The notes: generated from the sequence alone by a model not told the origin. 64,000 nt of DNA from an uncultured Actinomycetota bacterium (GCA_963725175.1 CAVRXH010000006.1:5939580-6003579); one strand, 5' to 3'. Numbered from the stretch's first letter, positions 6,264 to 52,558 are shown. Program-made: numbers and translations.

Positions 6264-7603
6264 AGAGAACACGCACAGTTACCCTTGCGCCGGTGGCTGG
6301 GCTGGCCGCCGTCGCGATGCTGCTCGCCGCGTGCGGTTCCAGCGGGTCCAGCGGCAGCGGCAAGTCAGGCTCGGGGTCGGCGCTGACCGCGTCGGCGCCT
6401 GGCGTCACCGCCACCACCATCACGATTGGCAGTCACCAGCCGCTCACCGGCATCGCCGCGCCCGGCTACGACGAGATCGCGCCCGCCGCCAACGCCTATT
6501 TCCAGTACCTGAACGCGCACGGCGGCATCTACGGCAGGAAGATCGACTACAAGTACCTCAACGACCAGTACAACCCGTCGCTGACCTCGACCGTCGTCCG
6601 CCAGCTCGTGCTCAAGGACAACGTGTTCGCGATCTTCAACGGGCTGGGCACGCCCACGCACCTGGCGGTCGCGCCGTTCCTGAACAGCGAGAAGGTGCCC
6701 GACGTGTTCGTCGCCTCGGGCTGCGAGTGCTGGAACGCGCCGTCCAAGTGGCCCTACACCTTCGGCTGGCAGCTTGACTACGTGCGCGAGGGCAAGATCC
6801 TCGGCCAGTACGTCGCGCAGCACTTCAAGGGGAAGAAGATCGGCTTCTTCTACCAGGACGACGAGTTCGGCCAGGACGGGGTCAAGGGCCTGGAGGACGA
6901 GATCCCCGCGAAGCAGGTCGTCGCCAAGGAGGCCTACGACCCGACCAACACCACGGTCGGCCCGCTGGTCGCCAAGCTCAAGGCGGCCGGGGCGCAGGTC
7001 GTCGTCTCGTTCTCGGTGCCGGCCTTCACCGCGCTGCTCAAGCTGAACGCGCTCGGGCTGAGCTACAACCCGCAGCTCGTGGTCAGCAACGTGGGCGCGG
7101 ACGCGATCACCCTGGCGGGCCTGCTTCAGGCGTTCGCCGCCAAGGCGCACCAGAAGGTGAACGGCAACGAGCTGACCCAGGGCATCATCACCGACGGCTA
7201 CCTGCCGACCCTGGGGGACACCAGCAACGGCTGGATCTCGCTGTTCAAGCAGATCCACGACAAGTACATCCCGAAGCTGCCGTTCGACGGGAACGTGCTC
7301 TACGGGATGTCGTCGGCCTACACCTTCGCCGAGGCGATGTTCAAGGCCGGGCGTAACCCGACCAGGCAGGATCTGGTCAACGCGATCAACGGCGGGCTGG
7401 CGCAGGGCGTGGCCATCGCGCCGTACGCCTACTCGGCGACCAACCACAACGGAGTCACCGGCGCCTACATCGGCATCATCAAGGACGGCGTGCTGGTGCA
7501 GACCGGCCCGGTGCTGGTCACCGACACCAGCCCGACCGGTGCCATCACGCCGGACACGACGCCGCAGCCGGCGGCGCCCGCGAACGGCATCCCGCCGCAC
7601 TGA
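6260..7603 (+). CDS. ABC transporter substrate-binding lipoprotein (LivK / Peripla_BP_6-like)
   Basis: AAGGAGAAAGG SD. Lipobox LLAAC followed by a Gly/Ser linker. 447-aa periplasmic-binding-protein-like sequence closing the liv operon. Confidence 0.85.
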   Translation: MKRTRTVTLAPVAGLAAVAMLLAACGSSGSSGSGKSGSGSALTASAPGVTATTITIGSHQPLTGIAAPGYDEIAPAANAYFQYLNAHGGIYGRKIDYKYLNDQYNPSLTSTVVRQLVLKDNVFAIFNGLGTPTHLAVAPFLNSEKVPDVFVASGCECWNAPSKWPYTFGWQLDYVREGKILGQYVAQHFKGKKIGFFYQDDEFGQDGVKGLEDEIPAKQVVAKEAYDPTNTTVGPLVAKLKAAGAQVVVSFSVPAFTALLKLNALGLSYNPQLVVSNVGADAITLAGLLQAFAAKAHQKVNGNELTQGIITDGYLPTLGDTSNGWISLFKQIHDKYIPKLPFDGNVLYGMSSAYTFAEAMFKAGRNPTRQDLVNAINGGLAQGVAIAPYAYSATNHNGVTGAYIGIIKDGVLVQTGPVLVTDTSPTGAITPDTTPQPAAPANGIPPH

Positions 7604-7609
7604 CCGCAC

Positions 7610-7650
7610 GGCCCGGTGCCCGCCGGTGATCATGAAGCGGGCACCGGGCC
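7610..7650 (+). terminator. Hairpin after the liv operon
   Basis: Perfect 14-bp stem GGCCCGGTGCCCGC / GCGGGCACCGGGCC with a 13-nt loop, starting 7 nt after the SBP stop. There is no T-run. Confidence 0.55.
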
Positions 7651-7681
7651 GGCGGGCGCCGGGGCGGACTGCCACACTGGT

Positions 7682-7710
7682 GCTGACCAGCGGAGTTCAC
7701 GCTGGTCAGC
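7682..7710. promoter_or_regulatory. Perfect 10-bp inverted repeat upstream of tetR (candidate operator)
   Basis: GCTGACCAGC-ggagttcac-GCTGGTCAGC, ending 35 nt upstream of the TetR start codon. Confidence 0.4.
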
Positions 7711-7744
7711 GTCCCGCCGCGACAGATCAGCAGAGGTAGCCAGC

Positions 7745-8358
7745 GTGAGTATCGCACCCAGCCGCAAGCCGGCCGCGCGGGACCGGCCGCCGGCCGAGCG
7801 ACTGCTGAGCGCGGCCGAGCGGCTGTTCGGCGAGCGCAGCTACCGGCGCACCACCGTGGCCGACATCTGCGCGCAGGCCGGCATCGCGACGGGCAGCTTC
7901 TACGCGCACTTCGGCTCCAAGTCCGACATCTTCGCGGCGGTCATCCGGCAGATCAACGCCGACCTGCGGGCGACTATGTCGGCGGCGCTGGACACCGCGG
8001 CGGGCAATCAGCGGGCCAGGGAGCGCGCCTCGTTCCGTGCCTATTTCGACCTCATGTCGGAGCGGCCGTGGATCTTCCGCATCGTCCGCGAGGCGGAGTT
8101 CCTGGCGCCGGGGGAGTTCCGCGCCTACTACGAGCGGCTGGCCAGGGGATACGCGCGGGGTGTCCGGGCGGCGCAGCTCGCCGGCGAGGTCGACGCGCGC
8201 TATGACCCGGAGGTCATCGCCTACGTCTACACCGGGCTCGGCAACTTCATCGGGATGCGCTGGGCCGAGTGGACCGCGGGCGGCCGGGTCCCCGACGACA
8301 TCTTCGAGGACGTGATGAGCGTCCTGGCCCGCGGCCTCCCCCCGCCGGCCCCGCCTAG
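7745..8358 (+). CDS. TetR/AcrR family transcriptional regulator; stop reached only after a frame correction
   Basis: GTG 7745 follows an AGAGG SD. HTH region ERSYRRTTVADICAQAGIATGSFYAHFGSKSDIF. As written, the frame runs on to 9022, through a palindromic repeat and antisense to bioY. A 1-nt shift in the C-run at 8338-8343 gives TAG 8356-8358 and a typical 204-aa TetR. Confidence 0.8.
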
Positions 8359-8390
8359 CTCGCCGGCCTGCCGCCGCGCCATCCCGGCTT

Positions 8391-8436
8391 ATCGGGTAGC
8401 GCTTTGGGCGTATGCGGCCCCAAAGCGCTACCCGAT
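8391..8436. repeat. REP-like palindromic element, copy 1
   Basis: Perfect 18-bp stem ATCGGGTAGCGCTTTGGG / CCCAAAGCGCTACCCGAT with a 10-nt loop. It lies between the convergent tetR and bioY genes. A second, inverted copy is at 63404-63459. Confidence 0.8.
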
Positions 8437-8446
8437 CATGAAGTAC

Positions 8447-9040
8447 TCAGCTGCTGGGGCGGCGGCCGGCGAGGGACCAGGCGGCGGGCAGCAGGCCGGC
8501 CGCGATGGCGGCCTTGATCGCGTCGCCGATCAGGAACGGGGTCAGCCCGTCGGCGATCGCGGCGGACACGCTCAGGTGCAGCGACACCGCCAGCCAGGTC
8601 ACGCCGACCGCGTAGATGACCACCTCGCCGGCCAGCATCACCGGCACCGAGCGGAGCACGGAGCGGTCGCCGCCCCGGCCGGCCAGGTAGCCGCACAGCG
8701 CCGCCGCCAGGAAGAACCCGACGATGTACCCGAACGACGCGCCCACGTAGCCGCTGGCGTGCCCGGCGAACCACGGCACGCCGGCCACGCCGGCCACCGC
8801 GTACAGGGCCATCGCGGCGGCGGCCCGGCGCCAGCCGAGCGCGGTGCCGGCGAGCAGCACGCCGAGGGTCTGCCCGGTGACCGGGACTGGCGTGAACGAC
8901 AGGTGGATCTGGAGCTGGGCGAGTACGCCGACGAACCCGGCCGCGCCGACCACGAGCAGGATGTCCCTGACCAGGGTGCCGGGCAGCAGGTCGGCCAGCA
9001 CCAGCGGGCGCGGGCGTCGTAGCGTATCTGAGTGCGACAT
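8447..9040 (-). CDS. bioY: Biotin transporter BioY
   Basis: ATG 9040 follows a GGAGG SD. 198-aa membrane protein with the BioY pattern (..FTPVPVTGQTLGVLLAG.., ..GYIVGF.., ..FLIGDAIKA..). Confidence 0.85.
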   Translation of the reverse strand: MSHSDTLRRPRPLVLADLLPGTLVRDILLVVGAAGFVGVLAQLQIHLSFTPVPVTGQTLGVLLAGTALGWRRAAAAMALYAVAGVAGVPWFAGHASGYVGASFGYIVGFFLAAALCGYLAGRGGDRSVLRSVPVMLAGEVVIYAVGVTWLAVSLHLSVSAAIADGLTPFLIGDAIKAAIAAGLLPAAWSLAGRRPSS

Positions 9041-9073
9041 CGGGGCGGAGCCTCCTACTGAAGGGCGCGTGAC

Positions 9074-9586
9074 GTGGAGCCGGACGTGCTGGGACGCTAC
9101 CACGAGGGTGCTTTGCCGACATTCCGGGCATCGAGCGCACCGGCTGCCGACGCCTCCGGGCCACCCCTGCCCGACCTGCTGAGCTACCTGCGCGGCGACT
9201 GGCAGGTGGCCCGCCGGCTCACCGATCACCGGTCCGGCACGGCGGGGGAGTTCACCGGCACCGCGTCGTTCCGCGCGCTGGGCAGGGCCGGGCTGGCGTA
9301 CCGGGAGGAGGGGGAGCTGCGGTTCGGGGGGCACCTGGGACCGGCCAGCCGAGACCTGATCTACCTCGCCGCTGCGGACGGCGCGCTAGATGTCCGGTTC
9401 GGCGACGGGCGCGCGTTCTACCGGCTGGAGGCGAGCGGCGGCCGGTGGACCGCCGGGCACCCGTGCGGCCTGGATCACTACCAGGTCACCGGCGAGCTGC
9501 TCGGCGCCGGCCGGTACGCCGAGCACTGGCAGGTCACCGGGCCCGCCAAGAATTACGAGATCGACTCCACGCTGGTCCGCCGGTGA
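9074..9586 (+). CDS. Hypothetical protein (possibly DUF6314-like), first gene of an operon divergent from bioY
   Basis: 170-aa ORF with coding-like GC3. Its stop overlaps the next start (GTGA). The family name is recalled from memory only, and the start is uncertain. Confidence 0.55.
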   Translation: MEPDVLGRYHEGALPTFRASSAPAADASGPPLPDLLSYLRGDWQVARRLTDHRSGTAGEFTGTASFRALGRAGLAYREEGELRFGGHLGPASRDLIYLAAADGALDVRFGDGRAFYRLEASGGRWTAGHPCGLDHYQVTGELLGAGRYAEHWQVTGPAKNYEIDSTLVRR

Positions 9587-19398: not shown

Positions 19399-19432
19399 CG
19401 TAGGCGTCCGCAGTTCAGCTGATAACAGCAAG

Positions 19433-19563
19433 AGGCAGGGCAGGGCAGGGCAGGGCAGGGCAGGGCAGGGCAGGGCAGGGCAGGGCAGGGCAGGGCAGGG
19501 CAGGGCAGGGCAGGGCAGGGCAGGGGCAGGGGCAGGGCAGGGGCAGGGGCAGGGGCGGGGCGG
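19433..19563. repeat. Pentanucleotide microsatellite (CAGGG)x17 grading into (CAGGGG)n; G-quadruplex-type tract on the + strand
   Basis: 17 perfect CAGGG units span 19436-19520. They are followed by CAGGGG x2, CAGGG, CAGGGG x3 and CGGGGCGG. Confidence 0.95.
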
Positions 19564-42656: not shown

Positions 42657-43562
42657 TCAGCCCCGGTACGCCACCGTCACGTAGTCCGACGACTTCGCCC
42701 CATAGCTGGACCCGGTCACGTACACCCTGGTACCGGCCGGGCTGACCGCCACCGTGTAGGCGAAGTCGTGGCTGTTGCCCGGCCCCTGGTAGCGGGCCGC
42801 CCACAGTCGCGCCCCGGTCGCCGCGCTGTACGCCACCGTCGCGTAGTCAGACGACTTCGCCGCCTGGCTGCGCCCGGTGACGAACACCCTGGTCCCGCCC
42901 CGGCTGACCGCGATGGCGTTAGGGCTGTCGTAGCCGTACTTGCCGGCGCCGTTGTAGCGGGCCGCCCACAGCCGAGCGCCGGTCGCGGCGCGGTACGCCA
43001 CCGTGGCGTAGTCAGTCGACGTTGACCCGTCGCTGGACCCGGTGACATACACCCTGTTCCCGCCGGGGCTGACCGCCACGGCGGAGGCGTAGTCGTTGCC
43101 GTTGGCCGGGCCGTTGTACCTGGCCACCCATAGCCGCGCGCCGGTCGCGGCGTTATAGGCCACCGTCGCGAAGTCAGCCGACGCTGGCCCCTGCCTGGAT
43201 CCGGTGACGTAGACCGTGGCCCCGTCCGGGCTCACCGCCAGGGCGGCAGCGGTGCCGTCGCGGTAGCGCGCCGTCCACAGCCGCGCGCCGGTCGCGGCGC
43301 TGTACGCCACCGTCGCGTAACCAGTCGGCGTCGCCTGGCTGGACCCGGTCACGTATACCCGGAGCCCGCCCGGGCCGACCGCCAAGGCGGTGGCGGTCCC
43401 GTTGCGGTGGCGCGCCAGCCATAGCCGCGCGCCGCCCGCAGGAACCGGCCGGCCGGCCGCTCCCTCGGCGGCACCCGATGCGGCCAGAGCCGATGCCGCC
43501 AGCGCCATACCTAACGCCGCCGCGCACAATCCGCGCGCCACGTTCCCGCCCATCGGAGTCAT
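42657..43562 (-). CDS. Secreted six-repeat beta-propeller protein (SBBP-type repeats)
   Basis: A signal peptide is followed by six ~43-aa repeats of the form YATVAY.AATGARLW.ARY.G......A.AVAVSP.G.RVYVTGSS. Confidence 0.75.
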   Translation of the reverse strand: MTPMGGNVARGLCAAALGMALAASALAASGAAEGAAGRPVPAGGARLWLARHRNGTATALAVGPGGLRVYVTGSSQATPTGYATVAYSAATGARLWTARYRDGTAAALAVSPDGATVYVTGSRQGPASADFATVAYNAATGARLWVARYNGPANGNDYASAVAVSPGGNRVYVTGSSDGSTSTDYATVAYRAATGARLWAARYNGAGKYGYDSPNAIAVSRGGTRVFVTGRSQAAKSSDYATVAYSAATGARLWAARYQGPGNSHDFAYTVAVSPAGTRVYVTGSSYGAKSSDYVTVAYRG

Positions 43563-43888
43563 TCCCCTCGTGAGGCCAGGCGCCCGGGAACCGCGCCCAG
43601 GGCTGGCGCGCGACGTCTGCCGTCCGGGAGAACCACCGGCCTGGAATCGCCGTCACCTGCGCTGACGACCCCCGGCCGCACCGGCCGGGTTTACCAGCTC
43701 GCGCTACCAGCGTCGCACAACCACCGCGACCGCGCTGCCTCCCGCCATGCCTGCCGACGGCGCCTAGTCCTGCAATTCGGTCAGCAGGGCCGAGTCTGTC
43801 GGCAACGTGCCGGGACAGCGCGGCGGCACATGCGGCGGTCGGCCGTTGGAGTAGTGGGAAAGTGGCCGCCGAGGCCTACTCTGGTGTC

Positions 43889-44119
43889 ATGACGATGACT
43901 GTCCACCTGCACGGCGATTTGGCTGCCGCGCTGGAGGCCGAGGCCGCCCGCCGCGGCCAGAGCCCCGAGCAGGTCGCCGCCGACCTGCTCGCTGAGCGGC
44001 TGCCGCCCGGCGGGAAGCGCCGCCGCAGGCTCGCCTTCGCTGGGGTCGGCGAGTCCGCCTCCGGCCGGTCAGCCTCCGAGGCTGACCGGATGCTGGCCGA
44101 GGGGTTCGGGCGCGACTAG
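43889..44119 (+). CDS. vapB: Ribbon-helix-helix antitoxin (VapB-like)
   Basis: MTMTVHLHGDLAAALEAEAARRGQSPEQVAADLLAE.. plus the C-terminal motif LAFAGVGESASGRSASEADRMLAEGFGRD. It is followed immediately by a PIN start. Confidence 0.7.
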   Translation: MTMTVHLHGDLAAALEAEAARRGQSPEQVAADLLAERLPPGGKRRRRLAFAGVGESASGRSASEADRMLAEGFGRD

Positions 44120-44227
44120 GTGCTGATCGTGGACACCGGGCCACTGGTCGCGGCGGCCGGTCTCCACATTCGGAGACCGGCCTTAAACCCGGACTGTGCG
44201 TGGGCGGTACTGGGATTGAACCAGTGA
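44120..44227 (+). pseudogene. Truncated vapC (only about 14 PIN-domain codons remain)
   Basis: GTG 44120 lies 1 nt after the vapB stop and encodes VLIVDTGPLVAAAG (compare the intact VapC MLIVDTGPLVAYLN at 48046). The frame then runs through the tRNA-operon hairpin into tRNA-Val and stops at 44227. Confidence 0.7.
44155..44182 (-). terminator. Hairpin downstream of the tRNA-Gly/Cys/Val operon
   Basis: Perfect 11-bp stem GGCCGGTCTCC / GGAGACCGGCC with a 6-nt loop, 19 nt past the 3' end of tRNA-Val(GAC). Confidence 0.55.
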
Positions 44228-44272
44228 CCCCTACCGTGTCAGGGTAGTGCTCTCCCGCTGAGCTAACCGCCC
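44201..44272 (-). tRNA. tRNA-Val (anticodon GAC)
   Basis: The reverse complement is GGGCGGTTAGCTCAGCGGGAGAGCACTACCCTGACACGGTAGGGGTCACTGGTTCAATCCCAGTACCGCCCA. It folds as a cloverleaf with a 7-bp acceptor stem and anticodon loop CTGACAC. Confidence 0.9.
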
Positions 44273-44276
44273 GCAG

Positions 44277-44348
44277 AGGCGGAAGCGGGAATCGAACCCG
44301 CGTAAGGGGCTTTGCAGGCCCCTGCCTAAGCCACTCGGCCATTCCGCC
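44277..44348 (-). tRNA. tRNA-Cys (anticodon GCA)
   Basis: The reverse complement is GGCGGAATGGCCGAGTGGCTTAGGCAGGGGCCTGCAAAGCCCCTTACGCGGGTTCGATTCCCGCTTCCGCCT. Anticodon stem GGGGC/GCCCC, loop CTGCAAA. Confidence 0.85.
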
Positions 44349-44429
44349 ACAAGCCGCCCCGGGGAGCTGGCCTGAGTATCTCTGAGCCGTACTGGCCGTC
44401 GACTCGCGAGACGGCTTCCGGCGCTTCCG

Positions 44430-44502
44430 AGCGGACGACGGGATTCGAACCCGCGACCCTCACCTTGGCAAGGTGATGCTCTACCAACTGAGCCACGTCC
44501 GC
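44430..44502 (-). tRNA. tRNA-Gly (anticodon GCC)
   Basis: The reverse complement is GCGGACGTGGCTCAGTTGGTAGAGCATCACCTTGCCAAGGTGAGGGTCGCGGGTTCGAATCCCGTCGTCCGCT. The anticodon loop contains TTGCCAA. Confidence 0.9.
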
Positions 44503-44800
44503 GTACTGCCAGCCGCTCCGGGCTGGCCCGGAGTACCACTGGCGTGCGTTCAGAACTGTAGCCGATCCTGACCGGCCCGCAAACTCGGCTGGGCCAGGGG
44601 ACCCGCGACCAGGGCGGGCAGACGGGGCATGCAGGGCGGTCGCCGCGCGTCAGGCCCGTTTCGTCCCAATTCCCTTCCCTGCCCCGCCCGCCGGGCCAGC
44701 GTCCCCGGAGCGAGCGCCGCAGCGACAGCGAACCTAGGTGCCAGGCCAGCAATCACGGCCCCCATCGCGGGAACTTATGCCCGGATGGGAGGCTGCTCCC

Positions 44801-46339
44801 ATGCGAACTGTGATCGTCTCCGGCGACGCCCTGACCGTGGATGACGTCGTTGACGTCGCACGCGGTGCCGCGCGCGCCGAGCTTGGCCCTGACGTGGCCA
44901 GGCGAATGGAATTCAGCCGGGATGTCGTGACGGCAGCGATCGCCGGTGACAGCCCGGTTTACGGCGTGAACACCGGCTTCGGGGCACTGGCCGACACCGC
45001 CGTCGGCGAGGCTGACCTGAGCAAGCTCCAGCGGGCGATCATCGTCTCGCACGGCGCGGGAGTCGGGCAGCCCCTGGACGACGCCGCGGTCCGGGCCATC
45101 CTGCTGCTCCGCGCCAGGACCCTGGCGGCCGGGCTGTCCGGGGTGCGCACCGACCTGCCGCGCCGCCTGCTTGAGCTGCTCGACCGCAACCTGCTGCCGG
45201 TCATCCCCGGCAAGGGCTCGGTCGGCGCGTCCGGGGACCTGGCGCAGCTCGCGCACCTGGCCCAGCCGCTGATCGGCGCGGGCCGGCTGCGCGCCGAAGG
45301 GGACGGGCCGCAGGGCCGGCCCGCCAGCGAGGTGCTGGCCGAGCATGGCATCGAGCCGCTGGTTCTCGGCCCGAAGGAGGGCCTGTCCCTGGTCAACGGC
45401 ACCGAGCCGATGCAGGCCCTGCTCGCGTTCTCGGTGCACGACGCGGCGCTGCTGGCGCAGGCCGCCGACGTGGCCTGCGCCATGTCGATCGAGGCGCTGC
45501 TCGGCACGGACCGCCCCTATGACGAGCGGGTCCAGGTGATCCGGCCGCATCAGGGCCAGCAGGACAGCGCCGCGAACCTGCGGGCGCTGCTGGCCGGCTC
45601 GCAGCTGATGGCCAGCCACCGGCATAGCCGCCACGCGGTCCAGGACGCCTACTGCCTGCGCTGCGCTCCCCAGGTGCACGGCGCCGTCCGGGACGTGCAC
45701 CGCTTCGCCAGGGGCGTGATCGACACCGAGCTGGGCGCGGTGGTGGACAACCCGGTCATCGTCGCCGACGGCGAGGTCATGACGACTGGAAACTTCCACG
45801 GCGAGCCGCTGGCGTTCGCGGCCGACATGCTCGGCATCGCCGTCGCCGAGTTCGCCAGCATCAGCGAGCGGCGGGTGGACCGGATGCTGGACCCGGCGTT
45901 CTCCCGCGGCCTGCCCGCGTTCCTGGCCCCGGACGCGGGCACGAACTCCGGCTTCATGCTGGCCCAGTACACCGCCGCATCCCTGGTCAGCGAGAACAAG
46001 GTGCTCGCCCATCCCGCCAGCGTCGACACCATCCCGACCTCGGGGAAGCAGGAAGATCACGTGTCGATGGGCTGGACGGGGGTCCGCAAGCTGCGGGAGA
46101 TCGTGGAGAATGTCCGGGCCTGCCTGGCGGTCGAGATCCTCTGCGCCGCCCAGGGCGTCGGCCTGCGTGCCGACATCGCGGCGCCGAGCGCCCCGGTCGC
46201 GGCGGTGCACGAGCTGATCAGGGCCCACGTGCCGAGCATGGATGTCGATCGCGAAGTTTCCGATCAGATAGCCGCCATCGACCAGCTACTGCCAGATATA
46301 TGCGCAACGGCCGCGCAGGCGTGCGGCGGGCTCAGATAG
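44801..46339 (+). CDS. hutH: Histidine ammonia-lyase
   Basis: ATG 44801 follows a GGGAGG SD. MIO-forming ASG triad in GSVGASGDLAQLAHLA. The ..IIVSHGAGVG.. segment carries the Ser-His pair typical of HAL rather than PAL/TAL. Confidence 0.88.
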   Translation: MRTVIVSGDALTVDDVVDVARGAARAELGPDVARRMEFSRDVVTAAIAGDSPVYGVNTGFGALADTAVGEADLSKLQRAIIVSHGAGVGQPLDDAAVRAILLLRARTLAAGLSGVRTDLPRRLLELLDRNLLPVIPGKGSVGASGDLAQLAHLAQPLIGAGRLRAEGDGPQGRPASEVLAEHGIEPLVLGPKEGLSLVNGTEPMQALLAFSVHDAALLAQAADVACAMSIEALLGTDRPYDERVQVIRPHQGQQDSAANLRALLAGSQLMASHRHSRHAVQDAYCLRCAPQVHGAVRDVHRFARGVIDTELGAVVDNPVIVADGEVMTTGNFHGEPLAFAADMLGIAVAEFASISERRVDRMLDPAFSRGLPAFLAPDAGTNSGFMLAQYTAASLVSENKVLAHPASVDTIPTSGKQEDHVSMGWTGVRKLREIVENVRACLAVEILCAAQGVGLRADIAAPSAPVAAVHELIRAHVPSMDVDREVSDQIAAIDQLLPDICATAAQACGGLR

Positions 46340-46496
46340 GCCAGTCACCCCGCGGGTAATTCCGGCGGAAAAGGCGCCGGTCCCGATATTGCGGGGGCGG
46401 GGCGGGGCGCCAGTGACGTGAGTGGCATTCTTACATGCGCCGGCCCGGCTCTCCAGCGAACCGGGCCGGGGTGCCGGCCGAGGGCCGGCGAGGTGC

Positions 46497-46919
46497 TCAG
46501 GCGCGCCAGAGCAGCTCGTCAAGCTCGGTGTCGACGTCGAGGAACTCGCCCTCGCGCCCGGCCGAGATCATGTCAAAGGTCCTGGTGAGGAACGCGGCGG
46601 TCGCCTCGCGCGGCGCCTCGAAGTGTGCCTCGCCGAACGGTGAGGACAGGGCCAGGTTCAGCACCGGCCTGCCGCGCTCATTCGACGGCCAGACCTGGAC
46701 ATCGCCCTCGCCGGCCGGGCCGTCGAGGCCCGCCGTGAGCAGCTCGCGTGCGAAGATCCACTCCACCGGCTCGTCGGCGCCGACGTGGAACGACATGCGG
46801 ATCGCATACGGGTCGTCGGCGCTGTAGCACAGGCTGGCCACGAGGGGAACGGCTCCGTGCTCGGGAACCACCAGGCTGAGACCAAGCTCAGCGGTCACGG
46901 TAGCGCTGCTGTTCATCAT
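46497..46919 (-). CDS. ssgB: SsgA-like sporulation/cell-division protein (SsgB-type SALP)
   Basis: ..ELGLSLVVPEHGAVPLVASLCYSADDPYAIRMSFHVGADEPVEWIFARELLTAGL..GDVQVWPS.. aligns by eye with SsgB. Confidence 0.8.
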   Translation of the reverse strand: MMNSSATVTAELGLSLVVPEHGAVPLVASLCYSADDPYAIRMSFHVGADEPVEWIFARELLTAGLDGPAGEGDVQVWPSNERGRPVLNLALSSPFGEAHFEAPREATAAFLTRTFDMISAGREGEFLDVDTELDELLWRA

Positions 46920-47394
46920 CGGGTCAGACCTTCTGCCTTGTCGTGTCCCGGATTGCCGGGCTTCATTATTGGTGTGCGTTTGCCATCACTTATGGCACTT
47001 AACGTGCCGCTGGAATGTCATCGCAGGAAGTAGATTCCGCGAATTGAGTCGCTCGTAACCTCGGTCAGCGTTCAACAAAACCGGCTTCACTAGCCCCGAC
47101 CTGGTCAAACGCTTCGGCAGATAAAACACGCTTTCCGGAGCGTCCTGTTCCATCCGGCCCCACGACCCAATGTGACCTTCGTCTCACTCGGGCCTGCTCC
47201 GGCGCGTCGCGCTTGCGGATCTGGCTCGCATGAGTGCGGAACAGCCTGCTGGGCAGGGGATTCCAGTCCGCCGCGACAGGCTGCCCGGAGACGACCTCGA
47301 ACTAACACAAAGGCCATAAATAGTAATAACTGGACAGGGCTATTGCCGCCGTCTCTGCCGTGACCAGTCATTCCCCGGGGTGATCTATGGGGCT

Positions 47395-47441
47395 CTGCGG
47401 GGGCCGCCGGCCGCCCGGAGGCGGTGGCCGCAGAGTTTTTT
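47395..47441 (+). terminator. Orphan Rho-independent terminator (candidate sRNA 3' end)
   Basis: GC-rich hairpin with outer stem CTGCGG/CCGCAG, inner stem GCCGCC../GGCGG.. and tetraloop CGGA. It is followed 2 nt later by TTTTTT. There is no plus-strand CDS upstream. Confidence 0.55.
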
Positions 47442-47584
47442 CCGGATCTCGCGCGGCGGCCCGGTCCTGGCACGGGCACGGCGGCCGGAAGCGGGACTAA
47501 CCGCCCGGGCCGGGCGCGGCGCCGCCCGTCCGCCGGATGCGCTAATCTGAGACCGCCGTCACGGACCCGGTCAGGCCGTGCCAC

Positions 47585-47656
47585 GGGCGATTGGCTCAGC
47601 GGAAGAGCGCTGCCTTCACACGGCAGAGGTCGCTGGTTCGAACCCAGCATCGCCCA
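47585..47656 (+). tRNA. tRNA-Val (anticodon CAC)
   Basis: GGGCGATTGGCTCAGCGGAAGAGCGCTGCCTTCACACGGCAGAGGTCGCTGGTTCGAACCCAGCATCGCCCA. Acceptor GGGCGAT/ATCGCCC, anticodon loop TTCACAC. Confidence 0.9.
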
Positions 47657-47671
47657 CACAGCATCGCCCAC
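47645..47671 (+). repeat. 13-bp perfect direct duplication of the tRNA-Val 3' end
   Basis: CAGCATCGCCCAC occurs at 47645-47657 (the last 12 nt of the tRNA plus 1) and again at 47659-47671. Confidence 0.9.
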
Positions 47672-47689
47672 CAGCACTAGTTCACCGAC

Positions 47690-47725
47690 AGGTCCCGCCC
47701 GGCACGCCGGGCGGGACCTTTTCTC
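47690..47725 (+). terminator. Rho-independent terminator of tRNA-Val(CAC)
   Basis: Perfect 13-bp stem AGGTCCCGCCCGG-cacg-CCGGGCGGGACCT followed by TTTCTC. Confidence 0.8.
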
Positions 47726-47804
47726 ATCTGCGGGGCAGCCGCTAATCATGTTGCCCTCGCTAGCGGCTATCTGGACCGGCACCGGAGAACGCGATGGGAA
47801 GCTC

Positions 47805-48059
47805 ATGCAGGCAGGCCGCTCCGTGCTGACGTACGCTGGGTTTGTGACAGCGGCTGACTACAGCGATCTCCACGAGCTCATTGACCGCCTGGAACCAGAA
47901 CAGGCCGAGGAGCTGCGTGAGCACGTACTCAGGCTGATTCACCCGGTTCGGAGCCGGTTTAAGGTGCTGCGGACCTTCAGCGGCCCCGAGGCCAACCTCG
48001 GCGTCAGGGCGCGGGAAGTCATGCGCGCTGACTTCGAGCGTGACGATGCTGATCGTTGA
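47805..48059 (+). CDS. vapB: Antitoxin of the VapBC-type module
   Basis: 84 aa. The C-terminal FKVLRTFSGPEANLGVRAREVMRADFERDDADR resembles the toxin-binding tail of the 43889 antitoxin. It overlaps the PIN gene by 14-20 nt. An alternative ATG lies at 47748. Confidence 0.65.
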   Translation: MQAGRSVLTYAGFVTAADYSDLHELIDRLEPEQAEELREHVLRLIHPVRSRFKVLRTFSGPEANLGVRAREVMRADFERDDADR

Positions 48060-48456
48060 TACCGGCCCGCTCGTCGCTTACCTGAATCACAACGATCCAG
48101 ATCACGCTCGCTGCGCCGAACTTCTGGACTCGCGCACCGATGATCTTCTCGTGACCCCCTACGTCATCACCGAGGCCTGTTACCTCGTCGGGAAGTACGT
48201 CGGACCGGAGGCCGAGATCAACCTGGTTGAGGCGCTCGCCGCGGGGGACCTGAGCCAGATTGATGTCCCGGCAGGAGATCTGATCCGCATGGCCGAACTC
48301 ATGCGGCAGTACATCGGCTTCCCGCTGGGTGTTGCCGATGCGTCGGTCATCGCCACCGCCGAGCGCCTTCGGGCCACCGAGGTGGCCACACTGGACCGGC
48401 GGCACTTCCACGCGGTACGACCGGCCCACGTGACGGCGCTGAAGCTGCTTCCTTAA
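48040..48456 (+). CDS. vapC: PIN-domain ribonuclease toxin VapC
   Basis: MTMLIVDTGPLVAYLN..LLVTPYVITEACYLV..GVADASVIATAERL..VATLDRRHF carries the conserved acidic PIN residues. Confidence 0.85.
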   Translation: MTMLIVDTGPLVAYLNHNDPDHARCAELLDSRTDDLLVTPYVITEACYLVGKYVGPEAEINLVEALAAGDLSQIDVPAGDLIRMAELMRQYIGFPLGVADASVIATAERLRATEVATLDRRHFHAVRPAHVTALKLLP

Positions 48457-48533
48457 GGCTGTCGGGGCTGCCGTCCGATAGGAGAGTTGGCGGGGCGGGC
48501 AGGGAAATCGGGCAGACGGGACCGGCTGGTCCT

Positions 48534-49976
48534 GTGCAGACTGGCGGCGTGCTGCTGACGATCTCCACGACTCATGCTCCGGCGTCCGATCTCGGGTACC
48601 TGCTGCATAAGCACCCCGGCCGGGTTCAGGCGTTCCCGCAGTCGGTGGGCACCGCGCACGTCTTCTACCCGGCGGTCAGCGACGAGCGCTGCACGGTGGC
48701 GCTGCTGCTGGAGGTTGACCCGGTGGCGCTGGCGCGCGGCCGGGCGGGCCGGCGCGGCGAGGCGTTCCCGCTGGGGCAGTACGTCAGCGACCGGCCCTAT
48801 GTCGCGTCCAGCATGCTCGCGATGGCGCTCAAGGATGTCTTCCGCACGGCGCTGACCGGGCGCTGCGACGCCCGTCCGGAACTGGCCGCCGCGGCGATCC
48901 CGCTGGAGATCGGAATCCCGGCGGTGCCCAGCCGCGGCGATGCGGACCTGCCCCGGCGGCTGTTCGGGCCGCTGGGCTGGCAGGTCGCGGCGGCTCGCGG
49001 GCCGCTTGACCCGGAGATCCCGGACTGGGGCGACTCGCCGTACGCCGATGTCCGGCTCACCGGCGAGCTCCGGCTGGCCGATGCCCTGAACCACCTGTAC
49101 GTGCTGCTCCCGGTGCTGGACGACGCCAAGCACTACTGGGTCAGCGAGGACGAGATCGGCAAGCTGCTCCGCGCGGGCGAGGGCTGGCTGCCGTCGCACC
49201 CGGAGCAGGAACTGATCACCCGGCGGTACCTGTCGCACCAGCGGGACCTGGCCAGGTCGGCGCTGGCCCGGCTGGCGGAGGCCGACGACGCCGGGCCGGC
49301 CGAGTTCGACAACGCCCCGGACGGCGCGGTCGCGCTCGATGACCCGCGGCGGCCAGGCGAGCTGGCCGGGCAGCGGCGGGCGGCGGTGCTCGCCGCGGTG
49401 CTGGCGTCGGGGGCGCGCCGGGTCGGTGACCTGGGCTGCGGCGAGGGCCTGCTGGCGGCGGACCTGCTGGCCGCGCCGGGCATCGAGCAGGTAGTGGCCA
49501 CCGACGTGTCGGCGCGGGCGCTCCAGATCGCCGCGCGGCGGCTGGGCCTGGACCAGATGCCGGACCGGCAGCGGCAGCGCCTGGAGATCTTCCAGTCGGC
49601 GCTGACCTACCGCGACGACCGGCTGGCGGGCCTGGACGCCGCCGTCCTGATGGAGGTGATCGAGCACATCGACCCGCCGCGGCTGGACACGCTGGAACGG
49701 GTGGTTCTCGGCCACGCGGCCCCGGCCACGGTGATCATCACCACCCCGAACGCGGAGCACAACGTGCTGTTCGACGGCCTGCGAGCGGGCGGGCTGCGGC
49801 ACGCGGACCACCGGTTCGAGTGGACGCGCGAGCAGTTCAGGGCCTGGGCGAGCCGGGCGGCGGCCGCCTACGGGTACACGGCCGCGTTCGCCGGAATCGG
49901 CCCCGACGACCCGCGGGTCGGGCCGCCGACCCAGCTCGCCATCCTGACCAGGACCGGGGCGGAGGTGCCCGCATGA
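48534..49976 (+). CDS. hen1: 3'-terminal RNA ribose 2'-O-methyltransferase Hen1 (bacterial RNA repair)
   Basis: N-terminal Hen1 ligase-activating domain (..LLTISTTHAPASDLGYLLHKHPGRVQ..) and C-terminal methyltransferase (..VGDLGCGEGLL.., ..LMEVIEHIDPPRL.., ..HRFEWTREQF..). The start may be GTG 48549. Confidence 0.85.
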   Translation: MQTGGVLLTISTTHAPASDLGYLLHKHPGRVQAFPQSVGTAHVFYPAVSDERCTVALLLEVDPVALARGRAGRRGEAFPLGQYVSDRPYVASSMLAMALKDVFRTALTGRCDARPELAAAAIPLEIGIPAVPSRGDADLPRRLFGPLGWQVAAARGPLDPEIPDWGDSPYADVRLTGELRLADALNHLYVLLPVLDDAKHYWVSEDEIGKLLRAGEGWLPSHPEQELITRRYLSHQRDLARSALARLAEADDAGPAEFDNAPDGAVALDDPRRPGELAGQRRAAVLAAVLASGARRVGDLGCGEGLLAADLLAAPGIEQVVATDVSARALQIAARRLGLDQMPDRQRQRLEIFQSALTYRDDRLAGLDAAVLMEVIEHIDPPRLDTLERVVLGHAAPATVIITTPNAEHNVLFDGLRAGGLRHADHRFEWTREQFRAWASRAAAAYGYTAAFAGIGPDDPRVGPPTQLAILTRTGAEVPA

Positions 49977-52558
49977 GCGCGGAACTGGGTGTCCCCGAGC
50001 TGAGCCTGATCGTGCTGATCGGCGTCACGGGGTCGGGAAAATCGACGTTCGCCCGGACGCGCTTCCGGCCGACTGAGGTCATCTCCTCGGACTTCTGCCG
50101 CGGCCTGGTCGCCGACGACGAGAACGACCAGTCGGCGACGCCCGAGGCCTTCGAGCTGCTCTCCTACATCGTCGGCAAGCGCCTGGCGGGGGGCCGGCTG
50201 ACCGTGGTGGACGCGACCAGCGTCCAGCCGGGCGCCCGCAGGCCGCTGGTCGCCCTGGCCAGGGAGCACGACGTGCTGCCGGTCGCGATCGTGCTGGATG
50301 TCCCCGAGGGCACCTGCGCGGCCAGGAACGCGGCGCGGCCGGACCGGGACTACGGCAGCCAGGTGGTCCGCCGCCAGCACGACCAGCTCCGGCGCGGTCT
50401 CAGCGGGCTGCGCCGGGAGGGCTTCCGCGCGGTCCACGTGCTGCGCGGCACGGCCGAGATCGACGCGGCGAGCATCACCAGGACCCGGCTGTACAACGAC
50501 CTGCGTGCCGAGAACGGGCCGTTCGACGTCATCGGCGACGTGCACGGCTGCCGCGCCGAGCTGGAAGGGCTGCTGGCCGAGCTGGGCTACGAGATCACCA
50601 GGGACGGCCAGGGCCGTGCCACGGGCGCGCACCACGAGGGCCGCCGGGCGGTCTTCGTCGGGGACCTGGTGGACCGGGGCCCGGACACTCCCGGCGTGCT
50701 GCGGCTGGTGCTGGGGATGGTCTCCGCCCAGGACGCGTACTGCGTGATGGGCAATCACGAGAGCAAGCTGCTGCGGGCCCTGCGCGGCAGCAAGGTCCAG
50801 GTCAGTCACGGCCTCGCGCAGTCGCTGGCGCAACTGGAGTCGGAGCCGCAGGAGTTCAGGATCGAGGTTGAGCGGTTCCTCGACGGGCTGATCAGCCACT
50901 ACGTCTTTGACGGCGGGCGGCTGGTGGTGGCGCACGCGGGCCTGATCGAGCGGTACCAGGGCCGCGCGTCGGGACGGGTCCGGTCGTTCTGCCTGTACGG
51001 CGACACCACGGGGGAGACCGACGAGTACGGGCTGCCGGTCCGCTACCCGTGGGCCCGCGACTATCGCGGCGCGGCGATGGTGCTGTACGGGCACACGCCG
51101 GTGCCCGCGCCGGAATGGGTCAACAACACGCTCTGCCTGGACACCGGCTGCGTGTTCGGCGGCCGCCTCACGGCGCTGCGCTATCCCGAGCGGGCGATCG
51201 TCTCGGTGCCCGCCACCGCCGTGCACTACGAGCCGGCCAGGCCGTTCCCGGCCAGCCCGGAGGCGGGCGGCGAGACCGGGCCGGAGGCCGGCGGGGCGGT
51301 GGCGGGCCGCCGGGAGCCCGACGTGCTCGACATCACCGACGTCACCGGGACGCGGGTCATCGAGACGGCGTACCAGCCGCGCATCGGGGTGCGCGAGGAG
51401 AACGCGGCGGCGGCGCTTGAGGTGATGAGCAGGTTCGCGATCGATCCCCGCTGGCTGGTGTACCTGCCGCCGACCATGAGCCCGGTCGCCAGCTCGGCCG
51501 AGCCCGGCCTGCTGGAGCACCCGGCGCAGGCGTTCGACTACTTCAGGACCGCCGGCGTCGGCCAGGTCGTGTGCGAGGAAAAGCACATGGGCTCGCGGGC
51601 GGTCGCGCTGGTCTGCCGGACGCCGGGCGAGGCCAGCGCCAGGTTCGGCGTGCCGGACGGCCAGGCGGGAGCGGTGTGGACCCGCACCGGGCGGGCGTTC
51701 TTCCGCGACGAGCTGACCGGGCAGTTCACCGGCCGGCTGCGGGAGGCAGCCGAACGGGCCGGGCTGTTCGTCGAGCTGGACACCCCCTGGCTGCTGTTCG
51801 ACGCCGAGCTGATGCCGTGGAGCGCCAAGGCCGGCCCGCTGCTGCGCGACCAGTACGCGGCGATCGGCGCGGCGGCCCGTGCCGCGCTCCCGGCCGCCGT
51901 GGCGACCCTGGAGCAGGGGGCAGCGGCCGGGCTGGACCTGGGCGAGTTGCTCGGCCGCATGAAGGGGCGGGAGGCCCGCGCCGCCGCGTTCACGGCTGCC
52001 TACCGGCGGTACTGCTGGCCGGTTGCGGAACTAGCTGGCATCAGGTTCGCGCCGTTCCAGCTCCTGGCCAGCGCGGGGGCGGTGCACCAGGAGCGGCCGC
52101 ACGGCTGGCACCTGGCCCTGGCCGACCGGCTGGCCGGCGCCGACCCGGAGCTGATCGCGGTCACCCGGCGGACTGTCGTGGACGTCACGGACCCAGGCTC
52201 GGTCGCGGCGGGGTGCGAGTGGTGGGCCCGGCTGACCGGGGACGGTGGCGAGGGCATGGTGGTCAAGCCGGCCCGGAACCTGGCCAGGGACCGCAAGGGG
52301 CTGGTGCAGCCGGGCCTGAAGGTGCGCGGCCGGGAGTACCTGCGGCTGATCTACGGCCCCGACTACACCGAGCCGGCGAACCTGGAACGGCTGCGCACCC
52401 GGAGCCTGGGCCACAAGCGCTCGCTGGCGCTGCGCGAGTACGCGCTCGGCCTGGAGGCGCTGGACCGGCTAGCCAGGGGCGAGCCGCTGTGGCGAGTACA
52501 CCAGTGCGTCTTCGCCGTCCTGGCCCTCGAATCCGAGCCAGTCGACCCGCGCCTGTAG
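49973..52558 (+). CDS. pnkp: Polynucleotide kinase-phosphatase-ligase Pnkp (bacterial RNA repair)
   Basis: ATGA overlap with hen1. Kinase P-loop GVTGSGKST. Metallophosphatase motifs GDVHGC, GDLVDRGP and GNHE. A C-terminal ligase-like domain is present. 861 aa. Confidence 0.88.
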   Translation: MSAELGVPELSLIVLIGVTGSGKSTFARTRFRPTEVISSDFCRGLVADDENDQSATPEAFELLSYIVGKRLAGGRLTVVDATSVQPGARRPLVALAREHDVLPVAIVLDVPEGTCAARNAARPDRDYGSQVVRRQHDQLRRGLSGLRREGFRAVHVLRGTAEIDAASITRTRLYNDLRAENGPFDVIGDVHGCRAELEGLLAELGYEITRDGQGRATGAHHEGRRAVFVGDLVDRGPDTPGVLRLVLGMVSAQDAYCVMGNHESKLLRALRGSKVQVSHGLAQSLAQLESEPQEFRIEVERFLDGLISHYVFDGGRLVVAHAGLIERYQGRASGRVRSFCLYGDTTGETDEYGLPVRYPWARDYRGAAMVLYGHTPVPAPEWVNNTLCLDTGCVFGGRLTALRYPERAIVSVPATAVHYEPARPFPASPEAGGETGPEAGGAVAGRREPDVLDITDVTGTRVIETAYQPRIGVREENAAAALEVMSRFAIDPRWLVYLPPTMSPVASSAEPGLLEHPAQAFDYFRTAGVGQVVCEEKHMGSRAVALVCRTPGEASARFGVPDGQAGAVWTRTGRAFFRDELTGQFTGRLREAAERAGLFVELDTPWLLFDAELMPWSAKAGPLLRDQYAAIGAAARAALPAAVATLEQGAAAGLDLGELLGRMKGREARAAAFTAAYRRYCWPVAELAGIRFAPFQLLASAGAVHQERPHGWHLALADRLAGADPELIAVTRRTVVDVTDPGSVAAGCEWWARLTGDGGEGMVVKPARNLARDRKGLVQPGLKVRGREYLRLIYGPDYTEPANLERLRTRSLGHKRSLALREYALGLEALDRLARGEPLWRVHQCVFAVLALESEPVDPRL

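What the first reader, a model, noticed from the sequence alone, without database searches (positions are those of the whole stretch)
43889..44227. Decapitated vapC: a vapB antitoxin followed by only ~14 PIN codons that run into the tRNA-operon hairpin and tRNA-Val
vapB (43889-44119) is intact. The toxin gene starts 1 nt later (GTG 44120) and encodes VLIVDTGPLVAAAG. That matches 11 of 14 residues at the N-terminus of the intact VapC at 48046 (MLIVDTGPLVAYLN).

The frame then enters the 11-bp hairpin at 44155-44182 and tRNA-Val(GAC). So the Gly-Cys-Val tRNA operon, or whatever brought it here, replaced the body of the toxin and left an orphan antitoxin.

Together with the VapC tail at 1-147, the window holds three PIN loci. 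Two of them bracket the tRNA/hutH/ssgB segment at 44.2-47.7 kb.
Basis: seen in the sequence. Interest (0 to 1): 0.5.

Follow-up and report, generated by a model that had tools for sequence, protein, structure and literature searches.

The report
Toxin gene lost, antitoxin left behind
A two-gene toxin–antitoxin pair next to a tRNA gene has lost almost all of its toxin gene through one 425-base deletion, leaving an intact antitoxin gene; this is an ordinary, well-known way for such gene pairs to decay.

Summary
vapB (43889-44119) is intact. It is followed at once by the first 13 codons of its own PIN toxin gene (44120-44158). The frame then runs through an 11-bp hairpin (44155-44182) and stops at 44227, inside the antisense of tRNA-Val(GAC).

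The tRNA Gly-Cys-Val / hutH / ssgB / tRNA-Val(CAC) block is conserved in 80 related Streptosporangiaceae genomes. The vapB DNA lies in the variable flank outside that block.

Two metagenome contigs from very close relatives (L090, L091; 92-96% DNA identity, VapB 75/76 aa) carry a complete vapB plus a 136-aa vapC. In both, the pair sits at this same site, next to the same hairpin and the same tRNA-Val.

The window equals that arrangement minus 425 nt. The deletion lies between two 5-nt GGCCG direct repeats, one in vapC codons 13-14 and one in the left arm of an ancestral 16-bp palindrome. The remnant keeps one of the four catalytic acidic residues, so the toxin is dead.

vapB keeps its upstream region, and differs from L091 by 7 synonymous and 1 non-synonymous change. 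It is either a decaying relic or a retained "anti-addiction" antitoxin.

An independent vapC-body deletion occurs in L009. This is a known kind of event (an orphan antitoxin from a degraded TA locus) and is of low interest.

The parts
43762..43766 (.). Left junction. Relative to L091 the window lacks 321 nt here (L091 368-688), which in L091 include a 43-nt direct repeat of the tRNA-Val(GAC) 3' part.
   Evidence: blastn: window 43393-43761 matches L091 1-367 and window 43767-44159 matches L091 689-1091. The repeat is L091 519-562, 38/43 identical to the tRNA 3' part. No such repeat exists anywhere in the window.
43846..43888 (+). Upstream region of vapB, shared with distant members of the module. 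It holds a -10-like TACTCT at 43877-43882, 6 nt before the ATG, which would give a leaderless mRNA (inferred).
   Evidence: The region aligns with L001, L002, L005, L090 and L091. The sigma-70 consensus scan found no canonical promoter, so the promoter assignment is inference from sequence conservation.
43889..44119 (+). vapB: an intact 76-aa antitoxin gene, with a likely ribbon-helix-helix N-terminus and a C-terminal toxin-binding tail ending ...MLAEGFGRD.
   Evidence: 237 homologues were found. All invariant family columns are kept. It is 75/76 identical to P0121 and P0123, which precede a 136-aa PIN gene. Pfam RHH_1 gives E 0.034 and the family profile against VapB26 (5X3T_A) gives E 0.064. 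Against L091 there are 7 synonymous and 1 non-synonymous differences.
44120..44159 (+). vapC remnant: 13 codons plus 1 nt of the cognate PIN toxin (VLIVDTGPLVAAA). Only the first catalytic Asp (D5) is retained.
   Evidence: 39/40 nt identical to L091 1052-1091. Identical to the first 13 aa of L002 and L091 VapC. The catalytic residues of VapC26 are Asp4, Glu42, Asp97 and Asp116 (PMC5737657).
44120..44227 (+). Chimeric 35-codon ORF: the vapC head fused to hairpin, spacer and antisense tRNA-Val sequence. It has no homologues as a unit.
   Evidence: no family hit. In relatives the same start opens a 136-aa PIN gene.
44155..44159 (.). Deletion junction: the single remaining GGCCG of two 5-nt direct repeats that flank the 425 nt lost (L091 1092-1516).
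   Evidence: L091 has ...GGCGGCCG|ACCGCG... in vapC and ...TAAGGCCG|GTCTCC... in the hairpin arm. The window reads GGCGGCCGGTCTCC.
44155..44182 (.). GC-rich hairpin with an 11-bp stem and 6-nt loop, 17 nt beyond the 3' end of tRNA-Val(GAC). It is the trimmed remnant of a 16-bp palindrome (TTAAGGCCGGTCTCCG/CGGAGACCGGCCTTAA) seen in L090 and L091. It is a probable terminator without a U-tract (inferred).
   Evidence: The consensus terminator scan found nothing because there is no T run.
44200..44272 (-). tRNA-Val(GAC), the last gene of the Gly-Cys-Val tRNA operon. Similarity to related species ends at its 3' end.
44276..44502 (-). tRNA-Cys(GCA) 44276-44348 and tRNA-Gly(GCC) 44429-44502.
47808..48456 (+). 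Second, intact TA pair just beyond tRNA-Val(CAC) (47585-47657): an 83-aa antitoxin candidate (47808-48059) and a PIN toxin VapC2 (48046-48456). VapC2 is 50% identical to the lost toxin.
   Evidence: Pfam PIN E 1e-15. VapC1 (L091) against VapC2: 50% identity, E 2e-41. The two antitoxins show no detectable similarity. An orthologue is present only in L015 among 80 relatives.

Best explanation
This is a decayed type II VapBC toxin-antitoxin module: a ribbon-helix-helix-type antitoxin plus a PIN-domain RNase toxin whose closest solved relative is M. tuberculosis VapBC26.

Shown:
- The module lies in the variable DNA directly beyond the 3' end of tRNA-Val(GAC).
- In very close relatives the same site holds the complete pair.
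- The window's sequence equals that arrangement minus 425 nt bounded by two GGCCG repeats. One repeat is in vapC codons 13-14. The other is in the left arm of a 16-bp palindromic hairpin that lies 17 nt downstream of the tRNA.
- The deletion removed vapC codons 14-136, its stop codon and the 49-nt spacer.
- It fused the 13-codon head to the hairpin and to antisense tRNA sequence.

Inferred:
- The deletion arose by replication slippage or illegitimate recombination between the short repeats, helped by the palindrome.
- The remnant cannot fold as a PIN nuclease, because it keeps 1 of 4 catalytic acidic residues and 10% of the protein.
- vapB is probably still transcribed from its conserved upstream region and still makes a DNA-binding, toxin-binding protein.
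- The order of loss (toxin first, antitoxin spared) is what selection imposes on TA pairs, because losing the antitoxin first is lethal.
- With no close cognate toxin detected in the genome, vapB is most likely a relic on its way out. Less likely, it is kept because it neutralises incoming copies of the same vapBC family.
For: Homologues of VapB at 75-99% identity are followed immediately by a 136-aa PF01850 gene in L001-L008, L090, L091 and one further contig.

L091 and L090 share the window's flanks on both sides, at 92-96% identity. On one side is the beta-propeller gene upstream region. On the other are the hairpin, the 17-nt spacer, tRNA-Val(GAC) and tRNA-Cys.

The ancestral 16-bp stem against the window's 11-bp stem comes.

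The cognate VapC matches VapC26 (5X3T_B) at E 6e-20. Its four catalytic acidic residues are given in PMC5737657.

The tRNA/hutH/ssgB block is conserved across the 80 related species loci. None of the 80 has a vapB homologue there, and similarity stops at the tRNA-Val 3' ends.

No other piece of this vapC is in the window.

None of the 120 closest homologues of the lost toxin (74% identity or more) comes from the 7,333,967-nt source contig.

L009 carries an independent 353-nt deletion that removes vapC codons 25 to the end and leaves vapB intact.

vapB differs from L091 by 7 synonymous and 1 non-synonymous change.

Orphan antitoxins left by degraded TA loci in the same context as valid pairs are documented as common (PMC7192599).
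Against: - The RHH assignment of VapB is weak by sequence (Pfam E 0.034, below the cut-off; VapB26 profile E 0.064).
- No canonical sigma-70 promoter or U-tract terminator was found, so expression of vapB and the terminator role of the hairpin are inference.
- The 7:1 substitution ratio reflects the whole divergence from L091. It does not show selection since the deletion.
- Only 64 kb of the genome could be read directly. The absence of a close VapC elsewhere rests on a top-120 list.
- The deleted allele was seen only in this assembly, and the raw reads could not be inspected.
Confidence: 0.9

Rival explanations
1. One reading: the Gly-Cys-Val tRNA operon, or a segment carrying it together with hutH and ssgB, was inserted into a pre-existing vapBC locus and overwrote the body of vapC.
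For: The vapC frame runs directly into the hairpin and tRNA-Val. PIN loci lie on both sides of the 44.2-47.7 kb segment.
Against: The tRNA/hutH/ssgB/tRNA-Val(CAC) block is conserved in order across the 80 related species loci. It is the flanks that vary. L090 and L091 carry a full vapC next to the same hairpin and the same tRNA-Val, so the tRNA was already there before the truncation. The two flanking PIN toxins are only 50% identical and their antitoxins are unrelated, so they are not halves of one split locus.
Confidence: 0.03
2. The orphan VapB is kept by selection, not merely left over. It would act as an anti-addiction or immunity factor that neutralises VapC toxins of the same family arriving on mobile elements. 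Alternatively it cross-regulates or neutralises the resident VapC2.
For: The same vapBC family (VapB 86-89% identical) sits among transposases, serine recombinases and PRiA4_ORF3 genes on many contigs. vapB and its upstream region are intact, with a 7:1 synonymous to non-synonymous ratio. vapC loss with vapB retention recurs independently in L009. Anti-addiction is a recognised proposal for orphan antitoxins (PMC7354431; PMC7192599).
Against: There is no functional test. The deletion may simply be recent, so the sequence is intact by default. VapC2 is only 50% identical to the lost toxin, and its own antitoxin is unrelated to VapB. Toxin-first loss is expected under neutral decay as well.
Confidence: 0.2
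3. Assembly artefact: the genome really has a full vapC, and the assembler collapsed 425 nt.
For: The deleted allele was found only in this assembly. Three metagenome contigs show the intact form.
Against: The junction is a clean deletion between 5-nt repeats, with unique sequence on both sides and no long repeat for an assembler to collapse. An independent, similar deletion exists in L009. The window also differs from L091 by other indels (321 nt and 10 nt) and by 4-8% substitutions, so it is a distinct lineage.
Confidence: 0.03
4. The 35-codon ORF (44120-44227) encodes a new functional small protein, or acts as an antisense regulator of tRNA-Val.
For: It has a start codon placed for translational coupling to vapB, and it overlaps the tRNA 3' end in antisense.
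Against: It has no family hit. Its last 22 residues are read from hairpin, spacer and tRNA antisense sequence that in the nearest relatives is non-coding. The fusion is not seen anywhere else.
Confidence: 0.01

Closest known systems
Mycobacterium tuberculosis VapBC26 (Rv0581/Rv0582; PDB 5X3T)
   Same: It is an antitoxin-first bicistronic pair with a PIN-domain toxin of about 135 aa. The toxin that belongs to this vapB (L091 VapC) aligns end to end with VapC26 at E 6e-20, and all four acidic active-site positions are conserved. The antitoxin N-terminus resembles the RHH of VapB26.
   Different: In the window the toxin is reduced to 13 codons. Antitoxin similarity to VapB26 is marginal (E 0.064). 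[quoted passage not shown]
Orphan antitoxins left by degraded type II TA loci (for example the Klebsiella pneumoniae survey, PMC7192599)
   Same: [quoted passage not shown]
   Different: A different phylum (Streptosporangiaceae). Here the precise deletion, its microhomology and the ancestral allele can all be reconstructed.
Anti-addiction chromosomal antitoxins (Erwinia chrysanthemi chromosomal ccd against F-plasmid CcdB; reviewed in PMC7354431)
   Same: A chromosomal antitoxin closely related to antitoxins carried with their toxins on mobile DNA.
   Different: Neutralisation is untested here. In the Erwinia case a complete chromosomal pair is present.
tRNA-gene-targeting integrative elements and genomic islets (for example actinomycete integrative elements of the pSAM2 type; from general knowledge)
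   Same: In L091 the vapBC segment (about 1 kb) lies between the intact tRNA-Val(GAC) and a 43-nt direct repeat of its 3' part. Relatives show the same kind of repeat-bounded segments at this tRNA, and L027 and L029 have tyrosine-integrase remnants.
   Different: There is no integrase inside the 1-kb segment. The window itself has lost the distal repeat.

Membership tests
Type II VapBC toxin-antitoxin system | Antitoxin gene first, with the toxin gene starting at or overlapping the antitoxin stop codon | tested here: met
   TAG at 44117-44119 is followed by GTG at 44120. L001 and L091 have the same geometry, where a full PIN gene follows.
Type II VapBC toxin-antitoxin system | Toxin is a complete PIN domain with the conserved acidic active-site residues | tested here: not met
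   The window keeps 13 of 136 codons and only D5. There is no Pfam hit. The feature is met in the ancestral-type alleles L090 and L091 (PF01850; VapC26 E 6e-20). The window locus is therefore a relic of a VapBC system, not a working one.
Type II VapBC toxin-antitoxin system | Antitoxin with an N-terminal DNA-binding fold (RHH here) and a C-terminal toxin-binding tail | tested here: inconclusive
   Pfam RHH_1 gives E 0.034 and FitA-like RHH E 0.076, both below their cut-offs. The family profile against VapB26 gives E 0.064. Two homologues carry a precomputed PF01402 hit. No structure was predicted.
Type II VapBC toxin-antitoxin system | The toxin inhibits growth and the antitoxin neutralises it | not testable with these tools
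   This needs expression of L091-type VapC with and without the window's VapB.
Orphan antitoxin from a degraded TA locus | Intact antitoxin ORF highly similar to the antitoxin of a valid pair | tested here: met
   75/76 identical to P0121 and P0123, which are paired with 136-aa PIN genes.
Orphan antitoxin from a degraded TA locus | No functional toxin adjacent, and the same genomic context as the valid pair | tested here: met
   Both flanks are shared with L091, and a 425-nt deletion removes the toxin body.
tRNA-targeting integrative element or islet | Direct repeat of the tRNA 3' part bounding the inserted DNA | tested here: not met
   There is no second copy of the tRNA-Val(GAC) 3' part in the 64-kb window. 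The feature is met in L091 (519-562, 38/43) and in L026, L027, L039, L065 and L080.
tRNA-targeting integrative element or islet | Integrase or other mobility genes within the segment | tested here: not met
   The genes to the left of vapB are a beta-propeller protein, an alpha/beta hydrolase, a methyltransferase, an ABC/FtsX transporter and PadR. There is no GC shift.

The most novel reading that the evidence does not exclude
The roughly 1-kb, TA-only segments bounded by 43-45-nt repeats of the tRNA-Val(GAC) 3' part are found in several related genomes: L091 (vapBC), L026 (a PIN pair), and two tandem ones in L027 with 100%-identical repeats (HepT/MNT, and DUF6247 plus a small ORF).

On the novel reading these are not random leftovers. 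They would be non-autonomous integrative cassettes, moved in trans by tyrosine integrases of co-resident elements. The window's toxin-less vapB would then be retained as immunity against re-invasion by this mobile vapBC family.
Probability: 0.1. Interest if true: 0.5.

Novelty: new member of a known kind. Interest (0 to 1): 0.17.

Why it matters
It has little importance on its own. It is a clean, fully reconstructable example of how a chromosomal toxin-antitoxin pair decays: one microhomology-mediated deletion anchored in a palindrome, with the toxin lost first and the antitoxin spared.

It is useful for annotation. vapB should be labelled an orphan antitoxin, 44120-44159 a vapC pseudogene fragment, and the 35-codon ORF should not be called a gene.

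It also corrects the direction of events. The tRNA block is resident DNA and the TA module is the newcomer at an integration hot spot. The recurring TA-only, repeat-bounded segments at tRNA-Val(GAC) in this uncultured Streptosporangiaceae clade are the only aspect that might repay further work.

Tried and rejected
- An exact-sequence look-up of the window's own 85-aa vapB product found no record.
- tblastx without low-complexity filtering gave meaningless, saturating hits in this 70-75% GC DNA. It was replaced by blastn.
- The consensus promoter/terminator scan found nothing in 43560-44760. Promoter and terminator roles therefore remain inference.
- The search for a second copy of the tRNA-Val(GAC) or tRNA-Val(CAC) 3' end in the window, as att-site evidence, found none. 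No GC shift marks an island.
- The search for the missing vapC body in the window gave only the 13-aa stub and the 50%-identical paralogue at 48046. The PIN-like tail at 1-144 is unrelated.
- The hairpin/spacer pattern scan of JGI metagenome contigs returned only the contig already held as L090. The frequency of the deleted allele in nature is unknown.
- The idea that the two antitoxins (43889 and 47808) are paralogues was rejected: no detectable similarity.
- Rfam found only the four tRNAs in 43000-48600.
- I considered whether the end of vapC in L091 contains a tRNA T-arm remnant (GTTCGAAC). I rejected this because that sequence encodes the family-conserved C-terminus ...ELLP, also present in L001 and L002.

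Full report
**What is in the sequence**

ARAGORN and Rfam place tRNA-Gly(GCC) at 44429-44502, tRNA-Cys(GCA) at 44276-44348 and tRNA-Val(GAC) at 44200-44272, all on the - strand. A second tRNA-Val(CAC) lies on the + strand at 47585-47657.

On the + strand a 76-codon ORF runs from 43889 to 44119 and ends in TAG. The next base starts a GTG ORF that reads VLIVDTGPLVAAAGLHIRRPALNPDCAWAVLGLNQ*. It stops at 44227, 28 nt inside the antisense of tRNA-Val.

The inverted repeat GGCCGGTCTCC / ACATTC / GGAGACCGGCC occupies 44155-44182. Its 61-nt context folds at about -34 kcal/mol on either strand (z about -4.5).

**Is the upstream ORF an antitoxin, and is the stub a toxin head?**

Pfam alone is weak for the 76-aa protein (RHH_1 E 0.034, FitA-like RHH E 0.076). 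The protein nevertheless has 237 homologues, mostly 76-77 aa long and 70-91% identical. The window's copy keeps every invariant column of the family.

In nine contigs read for two of these homologues, eight have a 136-aa PF01850 (PIN) gene starting at or overlapping the antitoxin stop. The first 13 residues of those PIN proteins are VLIVDTGPLVA(A/V)A, and in L002 they are identical to the window's stub.

The cognate toxin aligns end to end with M. tuberculosis VapC26 (PDB 5X3T_B, E 6e-20). The four acidic active-site residues of VapC26 are Asp4, Glu42, Asp97 and Asp116 (PMC5737657). Only the first of these lies within the stub. A profile of the antitoxin family touches the ribbon-helix-helix N-terminus of VapB26 (E 0.064).

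The locus is therefore a VapBC26-like type II module whose toxin is reduced to 10% of its length.

**Which side is resident and which is the newcomer?**

A scan of one genome per species with the adjacent HutH protein returned 80 loci. All are from uncultured Streptosporangiaceae or Actinomycetota MAGs, with HutH 73-84% identical. The order tRNA-Gly-Cys-(Val) / hutH / ssgB / tRNA-Val(CAC) recurs throughout them.

blastn similarity between the window and these loci covers 44200-47657. It stops at the 3' ends of the two outward-facing tRNA-Val genes; the commonest HSP ends are 44200 and 47657. None of the 80 has a vapB homologue near hutH, and only L015 has an orthologue of the second toxin at 48046.

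The tRNA/hutH/ssgB block is thus ancestral and the TA modules sit in the variable flanks.

**The ancestral allele**

The 90% cluster of the window's VapB contains proteins that differ from it by one residue (R67Q).

Their contigs L091 (ENA, 1736 nt) and L090 (JGI, 1028 nt; the same contig as L092) align with the window on both sides at 92-96% DNA identity. From left to right they carry:
- the upstream region of the beta-propeller gene (L091 only; the L090 contig begins about 110 nt upstream of vapB);
- the vapB upstream region and vapB;
- a full 136-aa vapC;
- a 49-nt spacer;
- the palindrome TTAAGGCCGGTCTCCG-TATT-CGGAGACCGGCCTTAA;
- the same 17-nt spacer as in the window;
- tRNA-Val(GAC) and tRNA-Cys.

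A third contig, for which only the gene table was available, has the same vapB followed by a 136-aa PIN gene.

**The deletion**

The window is L091 minus positions 1092-1516, which is 425 nt. The left end lies in vapC (...GCGGCGGCCG|ACCGCG...). The right end lies in the left arm of the palindrome (...TTAAGGCCG|GTCTCC...). Both ends carry GGCCG, and one copy survives at 44155-44159.

The deletion took vapC codons 14-136, the stop codon and the spacer. It also trimmed the stem from 16 to 11 bp.

A short direct repeat with one copy inside a strong palindrome is the classic setting for replication slippage or illegitimate recombination. That mechanism is inferred here, not shown.

DNA 44120-44159 is 39/40 identical to L091. 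No other fragment of this vapC is present in the window.

**State of vapB**

Against L091, vapB has 7 synonymous and 1 non-synonymous difference. Its upstream 120 nt are conserved apart from a 10-nt indel.

The stretch just before the ATG is conserved even in distant members of the module. It includes TACTCT at 43877-43882, 6 nt ahead of the start codon, which suggests a leaderless transcript. The sigma-70 scan did not call a promoter, so this remains inference.

I conclude that vapB is intact and plausibly expressed. The substitution ratio cannot show selection since the deletion.

**Is there a toxin left for it?**

The neighbouring VapC2 (48046-48456) is 50% identical to the lost toxin. It has its own antitoxin candidate, which is unrelated to VapB.

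Among the 120 closest homologues of the lost toxin (74% identity or more), none is recorded on the 7,333,967-nt contig that carries the window's proteins. This is indirect evidence only, because the whole genome could not be searched.

**Recurrence and mobility of the family**

In L009 an independent 353-nt deletion removes vapC from codon 25 to beyond its stop and leaves vapB intact. Toxin-first decay therefore recurs in this family.

Copies with 86-89% identical VapB lie among transposases, serine recombinases and PRiA4_ORF3 genes on many contigs, so the module travels on mobile DNA.

Orphan antitoxins derived from degraded TA loci in the original context are common in other bacteria. They have been proposed to be relics, regulators or anti-addiction factors (PMC7192599; PMC7354431).

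**Context at the tRNA**

In L091 the vapBC segment is bracketed by tRNA-Val sequence. A 43-nt direct repeat of the tRNA 3' part, running from the anticodon loop to the 3' end, lies at 519-562 (38/43 identical). A 22-nt D-arm-like fragment (20/22 identical) lies between the vapC stop and the palindrome.

The window has lost both: the first in a 321-nt gap at 43762-43766 and the second within the 425-nt deletion. It has no second tRNA-Val 3' copy anywhere. The genes to its left are ordinary (beta-propeller, hydrolase, methyltransferase, ABC/FtsX, PadR) and there is no GC shift.

Relatives show the same kind of 43-45-nt repeats bounding small segments at this tRNA:
- L026: a PIN pair, with a relaxase-like ORF beyond the repeat (assigned by reading the sequence, not by a family search).
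- L027: two tandem segments with identical repeats (HepT/MNT, and DUF6247 plus a small ORF), with an ORF just outside whose C-terminus reads like a tyrosine integrase (not scanned against Pfam).
- L065, L080, L029: endonuclease VII-type segments (Pfam hit for L065; L080 and L029 by similarity of sequence). L029 also carries an integrase remnant (PF00589, E 1.6e-7).

The tRNA-Val(GAC) 3' flank is thus an integration hot spot where TA modules accumulate. The window's locus is a further-decayed, now immobile, version of such a segment.

**Verdict**

It is a new instance of a well-known phenomenon, and interest is low. The only open and mildly novel thread concerns the repeat-bounded, TA-only 1-kb segments at this tRNA. 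They may be mobilisable cassettes, and the orphan antitoxin may be kept as immunity against the mobile vapBC family.

Noticed in passing
L091 519-1557; L026 8073-9181; L027 2520-4722; L065 1407-2177; L080 2139-2733; L029 6299-7427; L039 6723-8651: Small segments of 0.6-1.9 kb lie next to tRNA-Val(GAC), bounded by 31-45-nt (mostly 43-45-nt) same-orientation repeats of the tRNA 3' part. Several carry only a toxin-antitoxin pair (vapBC, a PIN pair, HepT/MNT, DUF6247 plus a small ORF). Others carry an endonuclease VII gene. Integrase remnants lie beside the repeats in L027 and L029.
   Followed up: partly
L024, L042, L052, L068 (tRNA-Cys to tRNA-Val(GAC) gap); L040 100-825: In four relatives, 3.4-7.5 kb is inserted between tRNA-Cys and tRNA-Val(GAC). 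L040 has two tandem tRNA-Val(GAC) copies about 650 nt apart. In about twenty relatives no Val(GAC) was found next to Gly-Cys in the stretch read.
   Followed up: no
window 48534-52558: A bacterial Hen1 gene (PF12623, E 2e-114) and a Pnkp gene (PNKP_ligase, E 2e-178) form an RNA-repair operon that starts 78 nt after the intact PIN toxin gene at 48046-48456. The result is an RNA-cutting toxin gene directly beside an RNA-repair system. L011 and L062 have the repair genes in this position without that TA pair.
   Followed up: partly
window 47645-47730: The last 12 nt of tRNA-Val(CAC), AGCATCGCCCAC, are repeated in tandem immediately after the gene. They are followed by a canonical GC-rich hairpin with a T run (GGTCCCGCCCGG...CCGGGCGGGACCTTTTCT), and then by the second TA pair.
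   Followed up: no
L002-L009 (about 6800-9150 in each): In the mobile copies of this vapBC family, the pair is followed about 0.5 kb downstream by a gene of about 650-660 aa of the PRiA4_ORF3 family. The unit is surrounded by transposases and large serine recombinases, and several near-identical copies occur per metagenome.
   Followed up: no
window 42657-43562 (- strand): The gene next to vapB encodes a 301-aa secreted-looking protein built of about five 54-aa repeats (YATVAY...ATGARLW). Pfam hits are PQQ_2 and SBBP beta-propeller. The repeats are also visible at DNA level with a 162-165-nt period.
   Followed up: partly
window 19414-19538: A long run of the pentamer GGCAG (about 20 or more copies) was reported by the repeat finder.
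   Followed up: no
window 1-147 (+ strand, frame 1): An ORF running off the left edge ends ...ASDLLTCATAAHHHLVVLHDDGNFATVAQYLPDLRERTI*. This is weakly PIN C-terminus-like (E 0.006, below Pfam's cut-off). It may be a third PIN gene cut by the window edge, and it is unrelated to the lost vapC body.
   Followed up: partly
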